42,961 bases of DNA, taken from Parcubacteria group bacterium CG1_02_40_25. Lineage in GTDB: Bacteria; Patescibacteriota; Minisyncoccia; Portnoybacterales; CG1-02-40-25. Under the pieces are notes generated by a model, which had not been told where the DNA came from, made no database searches, and was given only the letters and a program-made list of their open reading frames with translations. Each line of letters starts with the position of its first letter. Within the stretch, counting starts at the first letter, position 1. Location of the stretch: positions 1-42,961 of the forward strand of contig MNWF01000023.1 in assembly GCA_001872305.1 (NCBI GenBank), in the 5' to 3' direction. Below are positions 4,603 to 36,622 of this stretch, in pieces. The translations under genes were made by a program, and so were the position numbers.

Positions 4603-6693
4603 ATGGTTAAGCAACAAGTCCAACAACGTATTTTGGTATTGCGAAAAGCGATTAATCACCATCGTTATCTTTATCATGTTTTAGACAAGCAGGAAATTGA
4701 TGATGCCGCTTTTGATTCTTTAAAGCACGAACTTTGGCAATTGGAACAGCAATTTCCTGATTTAACGACGCTGGATTCACCTACTCAAAGAGTTGGTGGC
4801 GAACCATTAGATAAATTTATTAAAGTTCAACACCAAACGCCGATGTTTTCTTTAGAAGATGTTTTTTCTTTTGAAGAATTGGTTGACTGGGAAAAGCGGA
4901 TTAAAAAAATGGTGCTACCCCCTAATCGGTCCCTCCCCCTCGTGAAGGGGGCGGGTTGGGGAGGGGGACAGTTAGATTATTTCGTGGAATTAAAAATAGA
5001 TGGTTTTGCGGTTGCCTTGATTTATGAAAAAGGAATTTTACAAACAGGTGCCACCAGAGGCAATGGTAAAGTTGGTGAAGATGTAACCCAAAATTTAAAA
5101 ACCATTGAATCAATTCCCTTGCAATTACGTCGTCCGTCAGAAAAAGAATTAGTAGGCGCGGGGTTGTCGCAAGTCATATCCTTAGCAAAAATTTTTAATA
5201 GCCGTTTTGAAGTGCGTGGTGAAGTGGTAATGATTAAAAAAATTTTTGAACAAATTAATGCTAAGCGCCGTCAAAAAAATCAAGCGCTTTATGCTAATCC
5301 GCGAAATACCGCGGCTGGCTCCATTAGGCAGTTAAATCCTAAAATTGCCGCGTCGCGTCATTTGGAGTTTTTGTCTTATGATATTGTTTCTGGCGTTGGT
5401 CAAGAATTACATAGCCAGGAGCATTTATTATTACCATTTTTAGGGTTCAAAGTTGATAAACATTTTGAAAAATGTTCGGATTTAGAAAACGCGCGTCTAT
5501 TTCATCAAAAAATTAATAAAATTCGTGATGGCTTGCCATATCAAATTGACGGTTTGGTAGTATCAGTTGATGATAATGAGATTTTTGTTAAATTGGGCGT
5601 AGCCGGTAAAGCGCCCCGAGGCGCCATTGCTTATAAATTTCCGGGCAAGCAAGCAACCACGATAGTAGAAAAAATTATTTTGAGCATCGGCCGTACTGGC
5701 GCGTTAACGCCAGTAGCGATTTTGAAATCAGTCAAAGTTGGTGGCACGATGATATCTCGGGCAACGCTTCATAATGTCGACGAGATTAAACGATTAGATG
5801 TGCGGTCCGGCGACACGGTGGTTATTCAACGCGCTGGAGACGTCATCCCAGATGTTGTCTCGGTGATTAAAGAATTAAGACCTAAAAATACTACGGAATT
5901 TAAGATGCCGGCGCGTTGCCCGGTTTGCAATTCGCCAGTTGTTCGCGCTAAAGGCGAAGTGATCTATCGTTGTGGCAATTTAAAATGTGGAGCGATTCTT
6001 AAAGAACAATTTTATCATTTTGTTTCGCGCCACGCCTTTGATATTGTTGGTTTGGGCCCAAAGATTATTGATCAATTAATGGATAGTGGTTTAATTATTG
6101 ATGTAGCTGATATTTTTAAATTAACCGAGGGCGATTTAGTGTCCTTAGAACGTTTCGCCGCCAAATCAGCTAAAAATTTAGTTTTAGCTATTAATCGTAG
6201 CAAGCAGATTGCCTTGAGCCGGTTCATTTATGCTCTGGGCATTCGCCATGTGGGTGAAGAAACGGCCACGGATTTAGCTGTTCGATTTGGTTCTTTGTCT
6301 GCCTTACAACGTACCACGCTTGATAATTTGCGGTTAGTTCGTGATATTGGCGAAGTTGTGGCTAAAAGTATCGTTGACTATTTTAGCAATAAGCGTAATT
6401 TAAATTTAATTGATAAATTATTAGCCGCGGGAGTTAAGATTAAAAGTGAGCCCAAAAAAATCGGTCAGAGATTAGCCGATCAGTCATTTGTGTTTACTGG
6501 TGAATTAGTTAAAATGTCGCGGGACCAGGCCAAAAATAAAGTTCGCGCTTTAGGTGGCGATATTTCAGAATCAGTTAGCCGGCAAGCTGATTTTGTGGTA
6601 GCGGGGCTAAATCCGGGGACCAAATATCAGAAGGCTAAAAAACTTGGCGTAAAAATAATTGACGAAAAGGAATTTTTAAACATGATTTTCTAA
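4603..6693 (+). CDS. ligA: NAD-dependent DNA ligase LigA with a repeat-derived insert just upstream of the KxDG motif
   Basis: ELKIDG adenylation motif, ATRGNG, four-Cys zinc finger CPVCNS...CGNLKC, HhH region, C-terminal BRCT (FVFTGEL). Confidence 0.95.
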   Translation: MVKQQVQQRILVLRKAINHHRYLYHVLDKQEIDDAAFDSLKHELWQLEQQFPDLTTLDSPTQRVGGEPLDKFIKVQHQTPMFSLEDVFSFEELVDWEKRIKKMVLPPNRSLPLVKGAGWGGGQLDYFVELKIDGFAVALIYEKGILQTGATRGNGKVGEDVTQNLKTIESIPLQLRRPSEKELVGAGLSQVISLAKIFNSRFEVRGEVVMIKKIFEQINAKRRQKNQALYANPRNTAAGSIRQLNPKIAASRHLEFLSYDIVSGVGQELHSQEHLLLPFLGFKVDKHFEKCSDLENARLFHQKINKIRDGLPYQIDGLVVSVDDNEIFVKLGVAGKAPRGAIAYKFPGKQATTIVEKIILSIGRTGALTPVAILKSVKVGGTMISRATLHNVDEIKRLDVRSGDTVVIQRAGDVIPDVVSVIKELRPKNTTEFKMPARCPVCNSPVVRAKGEVIYRCGNLKCGAILKEQFYHFVSRHAFDIVGLGPKIIDQLMDSGLIIDVADIFKLTEGDLVSLERFAAKSAKNLVLAINRSKQIALSRFIYALGIRHVGEETATDLAVRFGSLSALQRTTLDNLRLVRDIGEVVAKSIVDYFSNKRNLNLIDKLLAAGVKIKSEPKKIGQRLADQSFVFTGELVKMSRDQAKNKVRALGGDISESVSRQADFVVAGLNPGTKYQKAKKLGVKIIDEKEFLNMIF
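4918..4970. repeat. G/C-rich nested palindrome inside the ligA CDS
   Basis: tccctccccctcgtgaagggggcgggttggggaggggga, with ccccc/ggggg and ccctcccc/ggggaggg pairings. Translated as PPNRSLPLVKGAGWGGGQ. Confidence 0.75.
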
Positions 6694-17102: not shown

Positions 17103-17200
17103 TTGTCATTGCGAGGAGCTCCGAGGATGACGAGGAGCGACGTGGCAATCTCGCGGGAGGAAGCCAGCAGGCTGATGACCCGCGTGGGAGTTGCGTGGTT
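17103..17200. repeat. TGTCAT element, beta type (gtcattgcgagg...cgtggcaatctcg)
   Basis: ttgtcattgcgaggagc...gagcgacgtggcaatctcgcgggagg... Starts 6 nt after the rplK stop. Related copies at 21588, 32402, 32741 and 36512. Confidence 0.75.
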
Positions 17201-20760: not shown

Positions 20761-21842
20761 AAATCTTTAACTAATTTTTCTACTTCGGCATATTTTGTAA
20801 CCCAATGAATGCGCGGGTCGCGCTTGAACCAAGTCATTTGCCGCTTGGCATATTGCTTGGTGTGCTGTTTAATGAGTTTGATGGCCTGTTCTAAAGAAAT
20901 TTTATTCTGTAGGTACTGGATAATTTCTTGATAGCCAATACCGGAAAAGGCCGGCAATTTTAGTGTGGTTTTGTTGCTATTGTTATCCCCGCAAATGCGG
21001 GGATCCATTGTTGAGATTGTCGATTTTAGACGTGGATTCCCATACCTCACGGGGTATCTTCGACTTTCGTGGGAATGACAATCAAGATATTGTTTTTTTA
21101 ATATTTTTACCTCTTCAATCAATCCCTGTTTAATCATATCATTAACCCGTGAATCAATTTTTCGTTCTAATTCTTTTTTCGGCACGCTAATGCCTATTTG
21201 CAGGGTATTAAATAGCGGTTTGTCCTTTTGGCGCAGTTGTGAAAACGGCAGGTCAGTTTTTAGGCAAACTTCTAAAGCGCGAATTAGGCGACGCCGATTT
21301 TTAGCGTCAATTTTTTTAGCGCAAATTGGATCTAATTTTTTGAGACGACTAAATAATTGTTCGTTAGTTTGCAATTCTAATTTTGTTCTAATTTTTACAT
21401 CAGGCGGCACTTCGGGAATAATTAAATTATCAACTATGGCTTGGATATAAAGTCCAGTGCCGCCGACTAAAAATGGAATTTGTGGCTGGCGAGATTTAAT
21501 TATTCGCTTGACTTTTGCCTGATATTGTGCTACGTTATAGTCGTCATTTGGATTGACAATATCAATCATAAAGTGGGGAATGTGAATGTCATCGCGAGGA
21601 GGAAGCCGTAGCGAAGCGGAGGCTGACGACGTGGCAATCTCTTGATCGACTTTGCGCTCAAGATTGTTTTGTTGGAGGGGCAGATTTTTCGCTGTTCCGA
21701 TATCCATTTGGCGGTAAATTTGTCGTGAATCAGCGGAAATTATGTATCCGCTGACTTTTTTGGCTAAACGTAAACCCCAACTACTTTTTCCTGAAGCGGT
21801 TGGTCCGAGAATCACAATAATTTTTGGTAAATTTTTTTGCAT
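20748..21842 (-). CDS. miaA: tRNA dimethylallyltransferase with two repeat-derived in-frame inserts
   Basis: GPTASGKS P-loop, IISADSRQIYRQMDIGTAK, GGTGLYI, RRLIRALE. 364 aa, versus about 300-315 aa as I recall for typical MiaA. Confidence 0.9.
   Translation of the reverse strand: MQKNLPKIIVILGPTASGKSSWGLRLAKKVSGYIISADSRQIYRQMDIGTAKNLPLQQNNLERKVDQEIATSSASASLRLPPRDDIHIPHFMIDIVNPNDDYNVAQYQAKVKRIIKSRQPQIPFLVGGTGLYIQAIVDNLIIPEVPPDVKIRTKLELQTNEQLFSRLKKLDPICAKKIDAKNRRRLIRALEVCLKTDLPFSQLRQKDKPLFNTLQIGISVPKKELERKIDSRVNDMIKQGLIEEVKILKKQYLDCHSHESRRYPVRYGNPRLKSTISTMDPRICGDNNSNKTTLKLPAFSGIGYQEIIQYLQNKISLEQAIKLIKQHTKQYAKRQMTWFKRDPRIHWVTKYAEVEKLVKDFLEK
20984..21083. repeat. Composite palindromic element inside the miaA CDS
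   Basis: atccccgcaaatgcggggat palindrome, then ggattcccatacctcacggggtatcttcgactttcgtgggaatgacaatc. On the gene strand it is translated as DCHSHESRRYPVRYGNPRLKSTISTMDPRICGDNN. Confidence 0.75.
21588..21641. repeat. Beta-type TGTCAT element inside the miaA CDS (antisense to the gene)
   Basis: gtcatcgcgaggaggaagccgtagcgaagcggaggctgacgacgtggcaatctc. Read on the minus strand as EIATSSASASLRLPPRDD. Confidence 0.8.
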
Positions 21843-32188: not shown

Positions 32189-32210
32189 TCAAGAATCTAA
32201 AATAAAATTG

Positions 32211-32240
32211 GCAGCGGGTAAAATACTCGCTGCTTTTTAA
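32211..32240 (+). terminator. Rho-independent terminator
   Basis: gcagcg (32211-32216) / cgctgc (32228-32233) plus T5. Confidence 0.7.
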
Positions 32241-32247
32241 TTGTTTG

Positions 32248-32256
32248 TGCTATAAT
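32248..32256 (+). promoter_or_regulatory. Extended -10 element (TGcTATAAT) 6 nt upstream of the rnhB ATG
   Basis: tgctataat at 32248-32256. The ATG at 32263 is where a TSS would be expected. Confidence 0.45.
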
Positions 32257-32262
32257 ACATTT

Positions 32263-33063
32263 ATGCAAAAGCCGAGTTTACGATATGAGAAAAATTTATG
32301 GCGCAAGGGATGTCGTTTTGTGGCAGGCATTGATGAAGTTGGCCGTGGGCCTTTGGCCGGGCCTGTTGTGGCCGCCGCGGTAGTGATAAAATATAATAAA
32401 ATTGTCATTGCGAGGAGCGAGGCAGTGGCCGAGCGACGTGGCAATCTCGCGGGAGGAGGCCGTCGTAGGCCGACGACCCGCGCGCGTGATTCTTTTCAAG
32501 ATTTAGCTGTTCGCGATTCTAAATTATTATCTTCGCGCCAGCGCGAAATTTTGTATCAAAAAATTATCATTCATCCGCAAATTGATTGGGGCATTGGCAT
32601 TGTTTCCGAAAAAATAATTGATGAGTTCAATATCTTAAAAGCAACAAAACTCGCGATGATGAAAGCAGTGGCGAATTTATCGCGCAGGCCTGATTGGTTG
32701 TTGATTGATGGTAATTTTTTGTTGCCGTTAGTCGGGGGGTGTCATTGCGAAGATCCCGCACCTTGTACTAAAAGTGCGGGGGACGTGGCAACCTCGAATC
32801 ATAAGTTGCGGCGCGCCTCAATGCCTCAGCGGTCAATCATTGCTGGCGACAAAAAAGTTTTTTCTATCGCCTGTGCCTCTATCATTGCGAAAGTAACGCG
32901 AGATAAAATAATGACTGATTTGCATAAAATTTATCCTCAATATGGTTTTAATCAGCACAAGGGCTATGGCACAAAATTACATTTTGCTAAATTAGCTCAA
33001 TGTGGCGCTTCGCCTATTCATCGTCGATCTTTTCATCCGGTATCGGAATTTGTTTTTCCGTAG
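32263..33063 (+). CDS. rnhB: Ribonuclease HII with two repeat-derived in-frame inserts
   Basis: GIDEVGRGPLAGPVV, DSKLLS, LLIDGN, GDKKVFSIACASIIAKV, GYGT. I use the ATG at 32263; the ORF-track alternative start is 32245. Confidence 0.9.
   Translation: MQKPSLRYEKNLWRKGCRFVAGIDEVGRGPLAGPVVAAAVVIKYNKIVIARSEAVAERRGNLAGGGRRRPTTRARDSFQDLAVRDSKLLSSRQREILYQKIIIHPQIDWGIGIVSEKIIDEFNILKATKLAMMKAVANLSRRPDWLLIDGNFLLPLVGGCHCEDPAPCTKSAGDVATSNHKLRRASMPQRSIIAGDKKVFSIACASIIAKVTRDKIMTDLHKIYPQYGFNQHKGYGTKLHFAKLAQCGASPIHRRSFHPVSEFVFP
32402..32490. repeat. Beta-type TGTCAT element inside the rnhB CDS (sense orientation)
   Basis: ttgtcattgcgaggagcgaggcagtggccgagcgacgtggcaatctcgcgggaggaggccgtcgtaggccgacgacccgcgcg. 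Near copy of 17103-17190. Translated as VIARSEAVAERRGNLAGGGRRRPTTRAR. Confidence 0.85.
32741..32800. repeat. Beta-like TGTCAT element inside the rnhB CDS
   Basis: gtcattgcgaagatcccgcaccttgtactaaaagtgcgggggacgtggcaacctcgaatc. 60 nt, translated as CHCEDPAPCTKSAGDVATSN. Confidence 0.75.
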
Positions 33064-33070
33064 GCGACTA

Positions 33071-33098
33071 TTGACAATGTCTATGAAATGTCTATAAT
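33071..33098 (+). promoter_or_regulatory. Near-consensus promoter with an overlapping direct-repeat operator for brnTA
   Basis: TTGACA (33071-33076), 16-nt spacer, TATAAT (33093-33098). ATGTCTAT is repeated at 33077-33084 and 33088-33095, 11 nt apart. Confidence 0.65.
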
Positions 33099-33116
33099 GT
33101 AATTAAAGTAAAGAAT

Positions 33117-33392
33117 ATGAAGTATTTTGACTGGGACCCCCAGAAAAATAAAGAATTAAAAGAAAAACGAGGCGTAAGTTTTGAAGAAGCAATCTTAGCC
33201 ATACAGAGCGGTAATCTTTTAAATACTCGTAAAAATCCAAATCAAGAAAAGTATCCCAATCAAAAACTATTTATCATTAATATTAATAATTATGTTTTTG
33301 TGATTTTGTTTGGTGAAGACAATGAAAAGTATTTTTTAAAGACAATAATCCCAAGCCGTAAAGAAACTAAAAAATATCTTTCTAAAAAATAA
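33117..33392 (+). CDS. brnT: BrnT-family (DUF497) toxin
   Basis: FDWDPQKNKELKEKRGVSFEEA N-terminal signature. Small size and toxin-first order, with an antitoxin-like gene 10 nt downstream. Confidence 0.75.
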   Translation: MKYFDWDPQKNKELKEKRGVSFEEAILAIQSGNLLNTRKNPNQEKYPNQKLFIININNYVFVILFGEDNEKYFLKTIIPSRKETKKYLSKK

Positions 33393-33402
33393 AATAAAAA
33401 AT

Positions 33403-33684
33403 ATGAAAAACTATAAGTTAAATAAATATGAGCAAGAAATTTTAGATGCTTTTGAGGCGGGCAAACTAAAGTCCATAAAAAATGAGGAGAAGAAGAATAA
33501 AGAATATATGCTGGCGGCTAAGGATTCTTTGAATAAGACAAAGAATATCAACATTAGGATTTCAAACGGCGACTTGCAAAAAATTAAAGCCAAAGCAGTT
33601 GAAAAGGGCTTGCCCTATCAAACCTTGATTGGCTCTCTTTTGCATCAACATTTCGCGGAAGCAAGCAAAGAGCTGACCAAGTAA
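33403..33684 (+). CDS. brnA: BrnA-like antitoxin (RHH/CopG-type C-terminus)
   Basis: EQEILDAFEAGKLKS, then NINIRISNGDLQKIKAKAVEKGLPYQTLIGSLLHQH, an RHH-like segment. Confidence 0.7.
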   Translation: MKNYKLNKYEQEILDAFEAGKLKSIKNEEKKNKEYMLAAKDSLNKTKNINIRISNGDLQKIKAKAVEKGLPYQTLIGSLLHQHFAEASKELTK

Positions 33685-36511: not shown

Positions 36512-36622
36512 TTGTCATTGCGAGGATAGCCTGCCTTGAGCGAAGTCGAAGGGTGGCAATCTCGAATTCTGAGATAGCTTGGGTTTTGAGGTTGCCACGG
36601 CACTTCGTGCCGCACAATGACA
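36512..36622. repeat. TGTCAT element, beta type
   Basis: ttgtcattgcgaggatagcc...gggtggcaatctcgaattc...gttgccacggcacttcgtgccgcacaatgaca. Terminal inverted repeats. Confidence 0.8.

What the first reader, a model, noticed from the sequence alone, without database searches (positions are those of the whole stretch)
32402..32800. RNase HII carries two beta-type element insertions between its catalytic motifs
Insert 1 (32402-32490) is a near copy of the intergenic element at 17103-17190. It lies between DEVGRGPLAGPVV...AAVVI and the DSK motif. Insert 2 (32741-32800, exactly 60 nt) lies between LIDGN and the GDKK...ASIIAKV segment. Together they add about 50 aa to a protein that is normally about 200 aa, which gives 266 aa here. 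Both are in the sense orientation and read gtcattgcga as (V/C)(I/H)(A/C)(R/E).
Basis: partly seen in the sequence, partly recalled or inferred. Interest (0 to 1): 0.6.

Follow-up and report, generated by a model that had tools for sequence, protein, structure and literature searches.

The report
Repeat elements translated inside RNase HII
The only RNase HII gene of a tiny uncultured (Patescibacteria-type) bacterium carries two in-frame copies of a GC-rich hairpin repeat between its catalytic residues; this resembles the palindromic elements of Rickettsia, but the repeat's core also occurs letter for letter in many bacterial phyla.

Summary
rnhB (32263-33063, 266 aa) contains two copies of a repeat module, GTCATTGCGAGGAG-hairpin-CGACGTGGCAATC. 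This module has 46 loose matches in the 651-kb genome, against 0-1 in shuffled or reversed controls.

- **Insert 1:** 32404-32483, residues V48-A74. It is the module plus a second CGCGGG...CCCGCG hairpin. It is 80% identical to the intergenic copy at 17105 and 87% identical to a copy on contig C24.
- **Insert 2:** about 32741-32812, residues C160-R183. It is a diverged solo module, 70-78% identical to its relatives, and about 72 nt long rather than 60.

Two syntenic orthologues (85-88% nt identity in the core) lack both inserts. They carry different repeat families in the same two loops. The D24/E25/D149/D196 catalytic residues, the GRG motif and Y235 are intact. Core dN/dS is 0.06-0.07. This is the only RNase HII in the assembly. 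All six full-length alleles hold both inserts. In the AlphaFold model the core is confident and the inserts are low-confidence excursions.

The same family sits in frame in UvrB, LeuRS, CysRS, ThiI, MiaA, SpoU and a PrmC-like methylase.

Best reading: selfish hairpin DNA that survived in permissive loops and is translated, as with Rickettsia RPEs. How it moves is unknown.

The parts
32263..33063 (+). rnhB (RNase HII), 266 aa, the only type 2 RNase H in the assembly
   Evidence: Pfam PF01351 scores 125 bits. PDB RNase HII chains match at E=1e-39. Foldseek gives TMt 0.90 to E. coli RNase HII. There is one locus in the genome.
32404..32483 (+). Insert 1. It consists of the repeat module (32404-32446: GTCATTGCGAGGAG-tip-CGACGTGGCAATC) plus a second hairpin, CGCGGGAGGA-GGCC..GGCC-GACGACCCGCG (32447-32483). 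It is read as V48-A74 (VIARSEAVAERRGNLAGGGRRRPTTRA).
   Evidence: Supported. GC is 71% against 41% for the rest of the gene. The segment is absent from L001 and L003. pLDDT is 64-81.
32741..32812 (+). Insert 2. It is a diverged solo module (32741-32793, tip hairpin CCCGCAC/GTGCGGG) plus a spacer-like tail. It is read as C160-R183 (CHCEDPAPCTKSAGDVATSNHKLR). The right boundary is approximate.
   Evidence: Supported. There are 24 extra codons relative to L001. pLDDT is below 50 at residues 158-183.
32332..32337 (+). Catalytic D24-E25 (DEVGRG; equivalent to T. maritima D18/E19), followed by the GRG motif
   Evidence: From the alignment to 3o3g/7uwe. These columns are invariant in 120 homologues.
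32515..32523 (+). DSK motif (D85-S86-K87), just downstream of insert 1
32707..32709 (+). Catalytic D149 (LIDGN; equivalent to T. maritima D107), 11 codons upstream of insert 2
32848..32850 (+). Catalytic D196 (AGDKK; equivalent to T. maritima D124), downstream of insert 2
17105..17182 (+). Intergenic copy with the same two-hairpin build as insert 1, between rplK and a thymidine kinase gene
   Evidence: As RNA it folds with z = -2.45, against about -1.0 for the two copies inside the gene.
21588..21639 (+). Copy of the module inside miaA (on the minus strand), translated antisense
   Evidence: Pfam IPPT match.
36514..36621 (.). Full palindromic copy (two modules in inverted orientation), intergenic

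Best explanation
Two members of a GC-rich, hairpin-forming dispersed repeat family inserted independently into rnhB. This happened after the lineage split from its nearest sampled relatives.

Both copies lie in connecting loops of the RNase HII fold: the β2-to-DSK loop and the β4-to-β5 loop between the third and fourth catalytic carboxylates. Both keep the reading frame and carry no stop codon. They are therefore transcribed and translated as two extra loops of about 27 and 24 residues, projecting from an otherwise normal, still functional enzyme.

The elements behave as selfish DNA. Insertions elsewhere in genes, or out of frame, are removed by selection, so only copies in permissive loops remain. 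This is the same logic as for Rickettsia palindromic elements.

**Shown:**
- The inserts belong to the repeat family.
- The syntenic orthologues have empty sites.
- Frame, catalytic residues and purifying selection on the core are all intact.
- Both inserts are fixed in all sampled full-length alleles.

**Inferred:**
- The inserts are translated.
- The enzyme retains activity.
- The inserted loops are exposed on the surface.

**Unknown:** the enzyme and mechanism that move the element.
For: **Repeat family.**
- 46 module copies occur in the genome, against 0-1 in controls.
- Insert 1 is 87% and 80% identical to other copies. Insert 2 is 70-78% identical.

**Empty sites.**
- L001 and L003 lack both inserts in an otherwise 85-88% identical, syntenic gene.
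- They carry other repeat families in the same loops. L001 has a CCCTCCCC..GGGGAGGG hairpin at site 1. L003 has GTCATCCTGAA... and TGGATGCTGAA..TTCAGCATGAC elements at site 3, and the second of these has 76 copies in this genome.

**Function kept.**
- D24, E25, D149, D196, the GRG motif, DSK and Y235 are all present.
- Core dN/dS is 0.057 and 0.069 over 185 codons.
- It is the only RNase HII locus in the assembly.
- The six full-length alleles in the 90% cluster are all 266 aa and hold both inserts. Identical protein is found on contigs from at least six assemblies.

**Structure.**
- The AF2 core has pLDDT >90. Insert 1 scores 64-81 and insert 2 scores below 50.
- The core superposes on E. coli RNase HII with TMt 0.90.

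**Permissive loops.**
- In 120 homologues the three loops range over 11-74, 8-57 and 8-68 aa. The rest of the protein is nearly invariant in length.
- The same repeat superfamily sits in rnhB of other lineages, at site 1 in L135 and at site 2 in L136.

**Genome-wide pattern.**
- In-frame copies occur in UvrB, SpoU, CysRS, an MTS methylase, ThiI, MiaA and LeuRS. All three sense frames and the antisense strand are used.
- No gene was found split by an out-of-frame copy.

**Precedent.** RPE-bearing Rickettsia guanylate kinase is translated and active (PMC2229807).
Against:
- No allele of the same species without the inserts was found. The empty sites come from relatives at dS of about 0.6-0.8, where the loops themselves have diverged. 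Exact insertion boundaries and any target duplication therefore cannot be read.
- Insert 2 is only 70-78% identical to other copies and has no significant BLAST hit.
- Pairwise dN/dS averages over both lineages. It cannot prove constraint after the insertions.
Confidence: 0.85

Rival explanations
1. Exaptation. The inserted peptides have been recruited for function. Insert 1 is arginine-rich, with 8 Arg in 27 residues, and could act as an extra nucleic-acid-binding arm of RNase HII.
For: Insert 1 reads VIARSEAVAERRGNLAGGGRRRPTTRA. AF2 predicts a helix at residues 46-61 with pLDDT of about 70-81. Both inserts are fixed in all sampled alleles. The reviews leave a positive effect of such inserts open (PMC2229807).
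Against: The Arg-rich content follows simply from reading a GC-rich repeat (CGN/AGG codons). The same family is read in three frames and antisense in other genes, giving unrelated peptides. Close relatives do without these inserts and carry unrelated inserts in the same loops. Insert 2 is predicted to be disordered.
Confidence: 0.08
2. The inserts are removed before the protein is made, by RNA-level excision triggered by the hairpins or by protein splicing, so the mature enzyme is about 215 aa.
For: The elements form hairpins. An ITR-triggered mRNA excision system is known in animals (PMC12779559). No expression data here exclude it.
Against: If excision made frame irrelevant, out-of-frame or stop-containing copies inside genes would be expected. 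Every in-gene copy found is open in the host frame. None of the same-strand ORF pairs that flank the other copies and were read is a split gene. The inserts are far too short for inteins and lack intein or intron signatures. Rfam finds nothing. The in-gene copies fold no better than shuffles, with z about -1.
Confidence: 0.03
3. rnhB is a decaying pseudogene that still happens to be open. The inserts are damage that has inactivated it.
For: Two insertions lie close to catalytic residues. The genome also has an RNase HI. Small symbiont-type genomes do lose repair genes.
Against: Core dN/dS is 0.06-0.07. All catalytic and substrate-recognition residues are intact. The 801-nt ORF has no frameshift or stop and is identical or near-identical in at least 6 assemblies. 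The predicted core fold is intact.
Confidence: 0.04

Closest known systems
Rickettsia palindromic elements (RPE; Ogata et al. 2000, as summarised in PMC2229807 and PMC10969869)
   Same: Both are dispersed, hairpin-forming repeats found between genes and also fused in frame inside many conserved housekeeping genes. Both are open in several frames, leave the host proteins apparently functional, and have no known transposase. Both occur in small genomes of host-dependent bacteria.
   Different: The sequence and host phylum are unrelated. The units here are shorter (a 35-60 nt module, 80-160 nt composites, against 105-146 bp for RPEs). The build is modular: a conserved base with a hypervariable, covarying hairpin tip. 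The core occurs letter for letter in many phyla, whereas RPEs are described as Rickettsia-specific. Here two copies sit in one small enzyme, and other repeat families hit the same loops in relatives.
MITEs with intragenic fusions (ERIC/IRU, Correia 107-bp form, Coxiella QMITEs; PMC2229807, PMC5896051, PMC10969869)
   Same: Both are small non-autonomous repeats with stem-loop transcripts and open frames that can fuse to host ORFs.
   Different: The rnhB copies have no terminal inverted repeats of their own: one is a module plus a second hairpin, the other a solo module. No target-site duplication is visible and no parent IS or transposase was found.
REP/REPIN elements mobilised by RAYT (HUH Y1 transposase)
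   Same: Both are short, GC-rich imperfect palindromes that occur singly or as inverted pairs. Both have conserved bases with variable tips and are thought to act as folded single strands.
   Different: REPs are extragenic by definition and are usually species-specific. No Y1_Tnp (RAYT/IS200) gene was detected in this assembly. Here the copies are commonly inside genes.
Small dispersed repeats (SDR) of Nostoc and other cyanobacteria (Elhai et al. 2008; cited from memory, not checked here)
   Same: Both are very small mobile palindromic repeats that appear inside genes without breaking the frame and nest inside each other.
   Different: They differ in sequence and host.

Membership tests
RNase HII (type 2 RNase H, Pfam PF01351) | Profile match above the curated threshold | tested here: met
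   125.1 bits against a cut-off of 25.8, in three stretches interrupted by the inserts.
RNase HII (type 2 RNase H, Pfam PF01351) | Four catalytic carboxylates (T. maritima D18, E19, D107, D124), plus the GRG motif and the Tyr that senses the 2'-OH | tested here: met
   D24, E25, D149, D196, G27-R28-G29 and Y235 align to the T. maritima and E. coli chains. They are invariant in 120 homologues. The residue roles are taken from knowledge of PDB 3O3F/3O3G.
RNase HII (type 2 RNase H, Pfam PF01351) | RNase H-like fold with a C-terminal helical domain | tested here: met
   The AF2 model has pLDDT 85.8. Foldseek gives 7uwe_C TMt 0.90 and 3o3f_A TMt 0.77, E=1e-21 to 1e-22.
RNase HII (type 2 RNase H, Pfam PF01351) | Cleavage 5' of a ribonucleotide in DNA | not testable with these tools
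   This needs an enzyme assay.
Rickettsia palindromic elements (RPE) | Multi-copy palindromic repeat, present both between genes and in frame inside conserved genes | tested here: met
   46 module copies were found. In-frame copies lie in RnhB (two), UvrB, SpoU, CysRS, an MTS methylase, ThiI, MiaA and LeuRS.
Rickettsia palindromic elements (RPE) | Sequence belongs to one of the RPE families and is restricted to Rickettsia | tested here: not met
   The host is a Patescibacteria-type genome. The module occurs in many phyla. No direct comparison with RPE consensus sequences was run. It works like an RPE but is not a member.
MITE | Terminal inverted repeats | tested here: inconclusive
   Full copies are palindromic, with (T)GTCATTGCGAG termini (for example C28:14622-14731 and window 36514-36621). 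The two rnhB copies have only the left terminus.
MITE | Target-site duplication and a related autonomous IS with a transposase | tested here: inconclusive
   No duplication is visible at the copies read. No recurrent neighbouring gene appears in 120 loci from other genomes. The assembly is only 84.6% complete.
REP/REPIN-RAYT | A RAYT (Y1 HUH transposase) gene in the genome | tested here: not met
   PF01797 has no match in the assembly, while the control genomes do match. The genome is 84.6% complete.

The most novel reading that the evidence does not exclude
The GTCATTGCGA-GGAG-[hairpin]-CGAC-GTGGCAATC module would be the footprint of an undescribed mobile-hairpin system that spans much of the bacterial domain.

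- Its base is conserved letter for letter in Patescibacteria, Firmicutes, Bacteroidota, Chloroflexota, Proteobacteria, Desulfobacterota and others. Its tip is free to vary as long as it pairs.
- In small Patescibacteria genomes this system, together with sister families sharing the GTCAT terminus, would be actively remodelling essential proteins.
- The repeated hits in the same rnhB loops would then reflect a site preference of the unknown machinery, not only tolerance by the protein.
Probability: 0.25. Interest if true: 0.75.

Novelty: new member of a known kind. Interest (0 to 1): 0.48.

Why it matters
RNase HII is a small enzyme of about 200 aa with solved substrate complexes. Here it tolerates about 50 extra residues in two loops that flank catalytic residues. 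Its nearest relatives carry different inserts in the same loops.

This gives a compact natural experiment on how much selfish DNA an essential fold can absorb, and on how new surface loops arise in the proteins of candidate-phyla bacteria.

It also has a practical use for annotation. The odd lengths and 'low-complexity' inserts of many Patescibacteria proteins can be explained as translated repeat elements.

The cross-phylum identity of the element core poses a separate open question: which enzyme moves or maintains it?

Tried and rejected
- **Read and transcript evidence.** No expression or population-polymorphism data were obtained.
- **Rfam.** Only tRNAs passed at the gathering threshold, and there was nothing credible in 32200-33100 at E≤1.
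- **Literature by sequence string.** The hits for GTCATTGCGAG and its complement looked, from their titles, like unrelated papers; none was opened. Searches combining Patescibacteria/CPR with repeat or in-frame terms found no description of this phenomenon.
- **Mobilising enzyme.**
  - No Y1_Tnp gene and no DUF559 gene in the genome.
  - Small GIY-YIG genes exist but none is next to a module copy.
  - ORFs within 1 kb of the module in 120 loci from other phyla share no recurrent family. GIY-YIG appears in 2 loci only.
- **RNA-excision idea.** I looked for genes split by out-of-frame copies. The same-strand flanking ORF pairs I read looked, from their sequences (no family search was run), like distinct genes: a transporter permease and a hydrolase, a sugar transferase and a TPP enzyme, YchF and a sigma factor, MgtC and a permease.
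- **Assembly artefact.** Rejected, because the same 801-nt gene with 1-2 substitutions is present in six other assemblies from different samples.
- **Intein or intron.** Rejected on size (72-80 nt) and the absence of any signature.
- **Target-site duplication.** None could be read. The loops have diverged too far in the orthologues.

Full report
**What is there.**

The window is contig C47 of a 651-kb, 54-contig assembly with 39.5% GC, estimated 84.6% complete. The nearest named RNase HII relatives are Portnoybacteria, Staskawiczbacteria and Parcubacteria MAGs.

The ORF 32263-33063 (+) encodes 266 aa. It matches Pfam RNase_HII at 125 bits, but in three separate stretches. On the DNA, the HMM match breaks at 32416-32478 and at 32716-32802. 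E. coli and T. maritima RNase HII align to query residues 12-43, 82-153 and 185-263. They skip about 38 and 31 query residues where they themselves have 4-7 and 1-3.

**The two inserts are copies of a genomic repeat.**

Both begin with GTCATTGCGA (32404 and 32741). The repeat is a module: GTCATTGCGAGGAG, a variable hairpin, then CGACGTGGCAATC.

- A two-anchor search allowing 2+1 mismatches finds 46 matches in the genome. Block-shuffled genomes give 0-1 and the reversed genome gives 0.
- The exact pattern occurs 15 times, against 0 for the control.
- Copies come in three builds. Some are inverted pairs forming 105-160-nt palindromes. Some are a module followed by a CGCGGG...CCCGCG hairpin; eight copies have this build, including insert 1 and the copy at 17105. 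Some are solo modules, including insert 2.

Insert 1 (32404-32483, 80 nt, 71% GC against 41% for the rest of the gene) is 80% identical to the copy at 17105-17182. That copy lies between rplK and a thymidine kinase gene. Insert 1 is 87% identical to C24:16700-16785, and 98% identical over the 3' 50 nt.

Insert 2 is a diverged copy, 70-78% identical to six relatives, with no BLAST hit at E<1e-3. Its tip hairpin CCCGCAC/GTGCGGG is intact, and a tail resembling the family's spacer runs to about 32812.

As RNA, the in-gene copies fold no better than shuffles (z about -1). The intergenic copy gives z = -2.45.

**They are insertions: empty sites in syntenic orthologues.**

The two closest proteins in a 5.8-billion-protein collection are P0002 (224 aa) and P0003 (273 aa). 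They lie in the same gene order, rnhB-brnT-brnA-exonuclease. Over 185 core codons they are 88% and 85% identical to the window at the DNA level.

| | Site 1 | Site 3 |
|---|---|---|
| L003 (P0003) | no element | a 55-codon block made of two other repeat families (GTCATCCTGAA...TTCAGGATCC, and TGGATGCTGAA..TTCAGCATGAC) |
| L001 (P0002) | an unrelated small hairpin, CCCTCCCCCTTTTGCAAAAGGGGGAGGG | empty (MTNKTTR) |

The TGGATGCTGAA..TTCAGCATGAC family has 76 copies in the window's genome.

The window's inserts therefore arose after the split from these relatives (dS 0.6-0.8). The same two loops were hit independently by other elements.

**The loops are hot spots across the group.**

In 120 homologues, the three connecting segments vary as follows:

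| Segment | Commonest length (aa) | Range (aa) |
|---|---|---|
| After the GPVVAAAV strand | 14 | 11-74 |
| Before DFLLIDGN | 8-10 | 8-57 |
| After DGN | 8-9 | 8-68 |

- 31%, 18% and 13% of the proteins are clearly expanded at these three sites. P0001 has 44, 10 and 37 aa.
- The expansions read like translated repeats.
- Two were checked at the DNA level. L135 (P0015) has a full palindromic GTCATTGCGAGGAGCG...CTCGCAATGAC copy at site 1. L136 (P0060) has one at site 2.

**The gene still looks functional.**

- D24, E25, D149 and D196 correspond to T. maritima D18, E19, D107 and D124. The GRG motif, DSK and Y235 are also present, and all are invariant in the alignment.
- Core dN/dS is 0.057 against L001 and 0.069 against L003.
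- The assembly has one RNase HII locus and one RNase HI.
- All six full-length members of the 90% cluster are 266 aa with both inserts. One polymorphism (A166V) falls in insert 2 and a few fall in the core.
- Six other assemblies carry the identical protein, with 1-2 synonymous changes. This also excludes an assembly artefact.
- The AlphaFold model (120-sequence alignment, mean pLDDT 85.8) has a confident core. Insert 1 scores 64-81, with a tentative helix at residues 46-61. Insert 2 scores below 50 and is modelled as coil.
- The core matches E. coli RNase HII with TMt 0.90 and T. maritima RNase H2 with TMt 0.77-0.79.

**rnhB is not special in this genome.**

In-frame copies of the same module lie in UvrB, a SpoU methylase, CysRS, a PrmC-like MTS methylase, ThiI, MiaA (read antisense) and LeuRS (read antisense). 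The module is read as VIAR..., SLRG... or HCEE..., and antisense as ...PRNDN. No particular peptide is therefore being selected.

None of the same-strand ORF pairs that flank the other copies and that I read looked like a split gene; I judged this from their sequences, without a family search. This argues that in-gene copies are filtered for frame. That is expected if they are translated, and not expected if they were excised from the mRNA.

**Mechanism.**

The best reading is selfish hairpin DNA that inserts widely and survives only where a loop can absorb it, and only when frame is kept. This is the logic worked out for Rickettsia palindromic elements. For those, 19 protein genes carry in-frame copies, and an RPE-bearing guanylate kinase is translated and active with altered substrate affinity (PMC2229807; PMC10969869).

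How the element moves is unknown.
- No target duplication is visible.
- The assembly has no Y1/RAYT transposase and no DUF559 gene.
- No gene family recurs next to the module in 120 loci from other genomes.

**An unexpected extra.**

The genomes are labelled Oscillospiraceae, Gammaproteobacteria, Bacteroidales, Chloroflexota/Anaerolineae, Desulfovibrionaceae, Alphaproteobacteria, Nitrospirales, Actinomycetota, Atribacterota, Elusimicrobia, Melainabacteria and several Patescibacteria.

- Across 145 distinct instances the fixed base is kept, usually as GGAG...CGAC. The tip varies freely but folds: median z is -1.7, and half fall below -1.64.
- Same-order relatives of the window's genome have only 0-2 exact copies, so the family has expanded here.
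- I found no Rfam family and no paper holding the string.

**Limits.**

The right boundary of insert 2 and the exact insertion points are approximate, because the loops have diverged in the orthologues.

**Verdict.**

This is a new example, in a new phylum and with a different element family, of the known phenomenon of palindromic repeats translated inside essential genes. Two further points add interest: the recurrent hits on the same loops, and the cross-phylum element core.

Noticed in passing
L015-L134 (loci from other genomes); window 32404-32446 as an example: The module GTCATTGCGA-GGAG-[hairpin]-CGAC-GTGGCAATC occurs with 23 identical bases in genomes of many phyla. The tip covaries, with 145 distinct tips that mostly fold. 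The conserved GGA/GAC next to the tip could close as G-C plus tandem G·A pairs; this was not tested.
   Followed up: partly
G000 C33:444-665, C36:5974-6177, C40:4821-4991, C28:15980-16135, C16:18264-18455: This 651-kb genome has five small stand-alone GIY-YIG nuclease ORFs (69-109 aa). Three lie directly after tRNA genes, and one of these carries an internal TAG. One lies within what looks like 23S rRNA sequence (not checked). None is adjacent to a module copy.
   Followed up: partly
L003:6400-6560 and L001:1925-1970: The two nearest orthologues of rnhB carry other repeat families in the same loops. L003 has a 55-codon composite at site 3. L001 has a CCCTCCCC..GGGGAGGG hairpin at site 1. A similar hairpin is at window 4931-4955.
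   Followed up: partly
P0096 (307-aa RNase HII of another Patescibacteria genome): The same peptide of about 30 aa (KSR.(N/R)RGLSMPTKSSILDKVGTKSEQ) appears twice, once at site 1 and once at site 2. This would be another rnhB hit twice by one repeat family. The DNA was not fetched.
   Followed up: no
window 33117-33684: A BrnT-like toxin and a CopG/BrnA-like antitoxin pair follows rnhB directly. It is conserved in the same position in L001 and L003.
   Followed up: no
G000 C50:3-1868 (LeuRS): Besides the antisense module copy (…REIATPQPLRALARNDND…), LeuRS carries a second repeat-like segment about 50 residues downstream (CCHAEFISASSANAVDSGTSVALSAGSAAGMTT).
   Followed up: no
P0125, P0128 (truncated members of the P0001 cluster): Two truncated cluster members stop at or just before insert 2. 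This suggests that short-read assemblies tend to end at this repeat.
   Followed up: no
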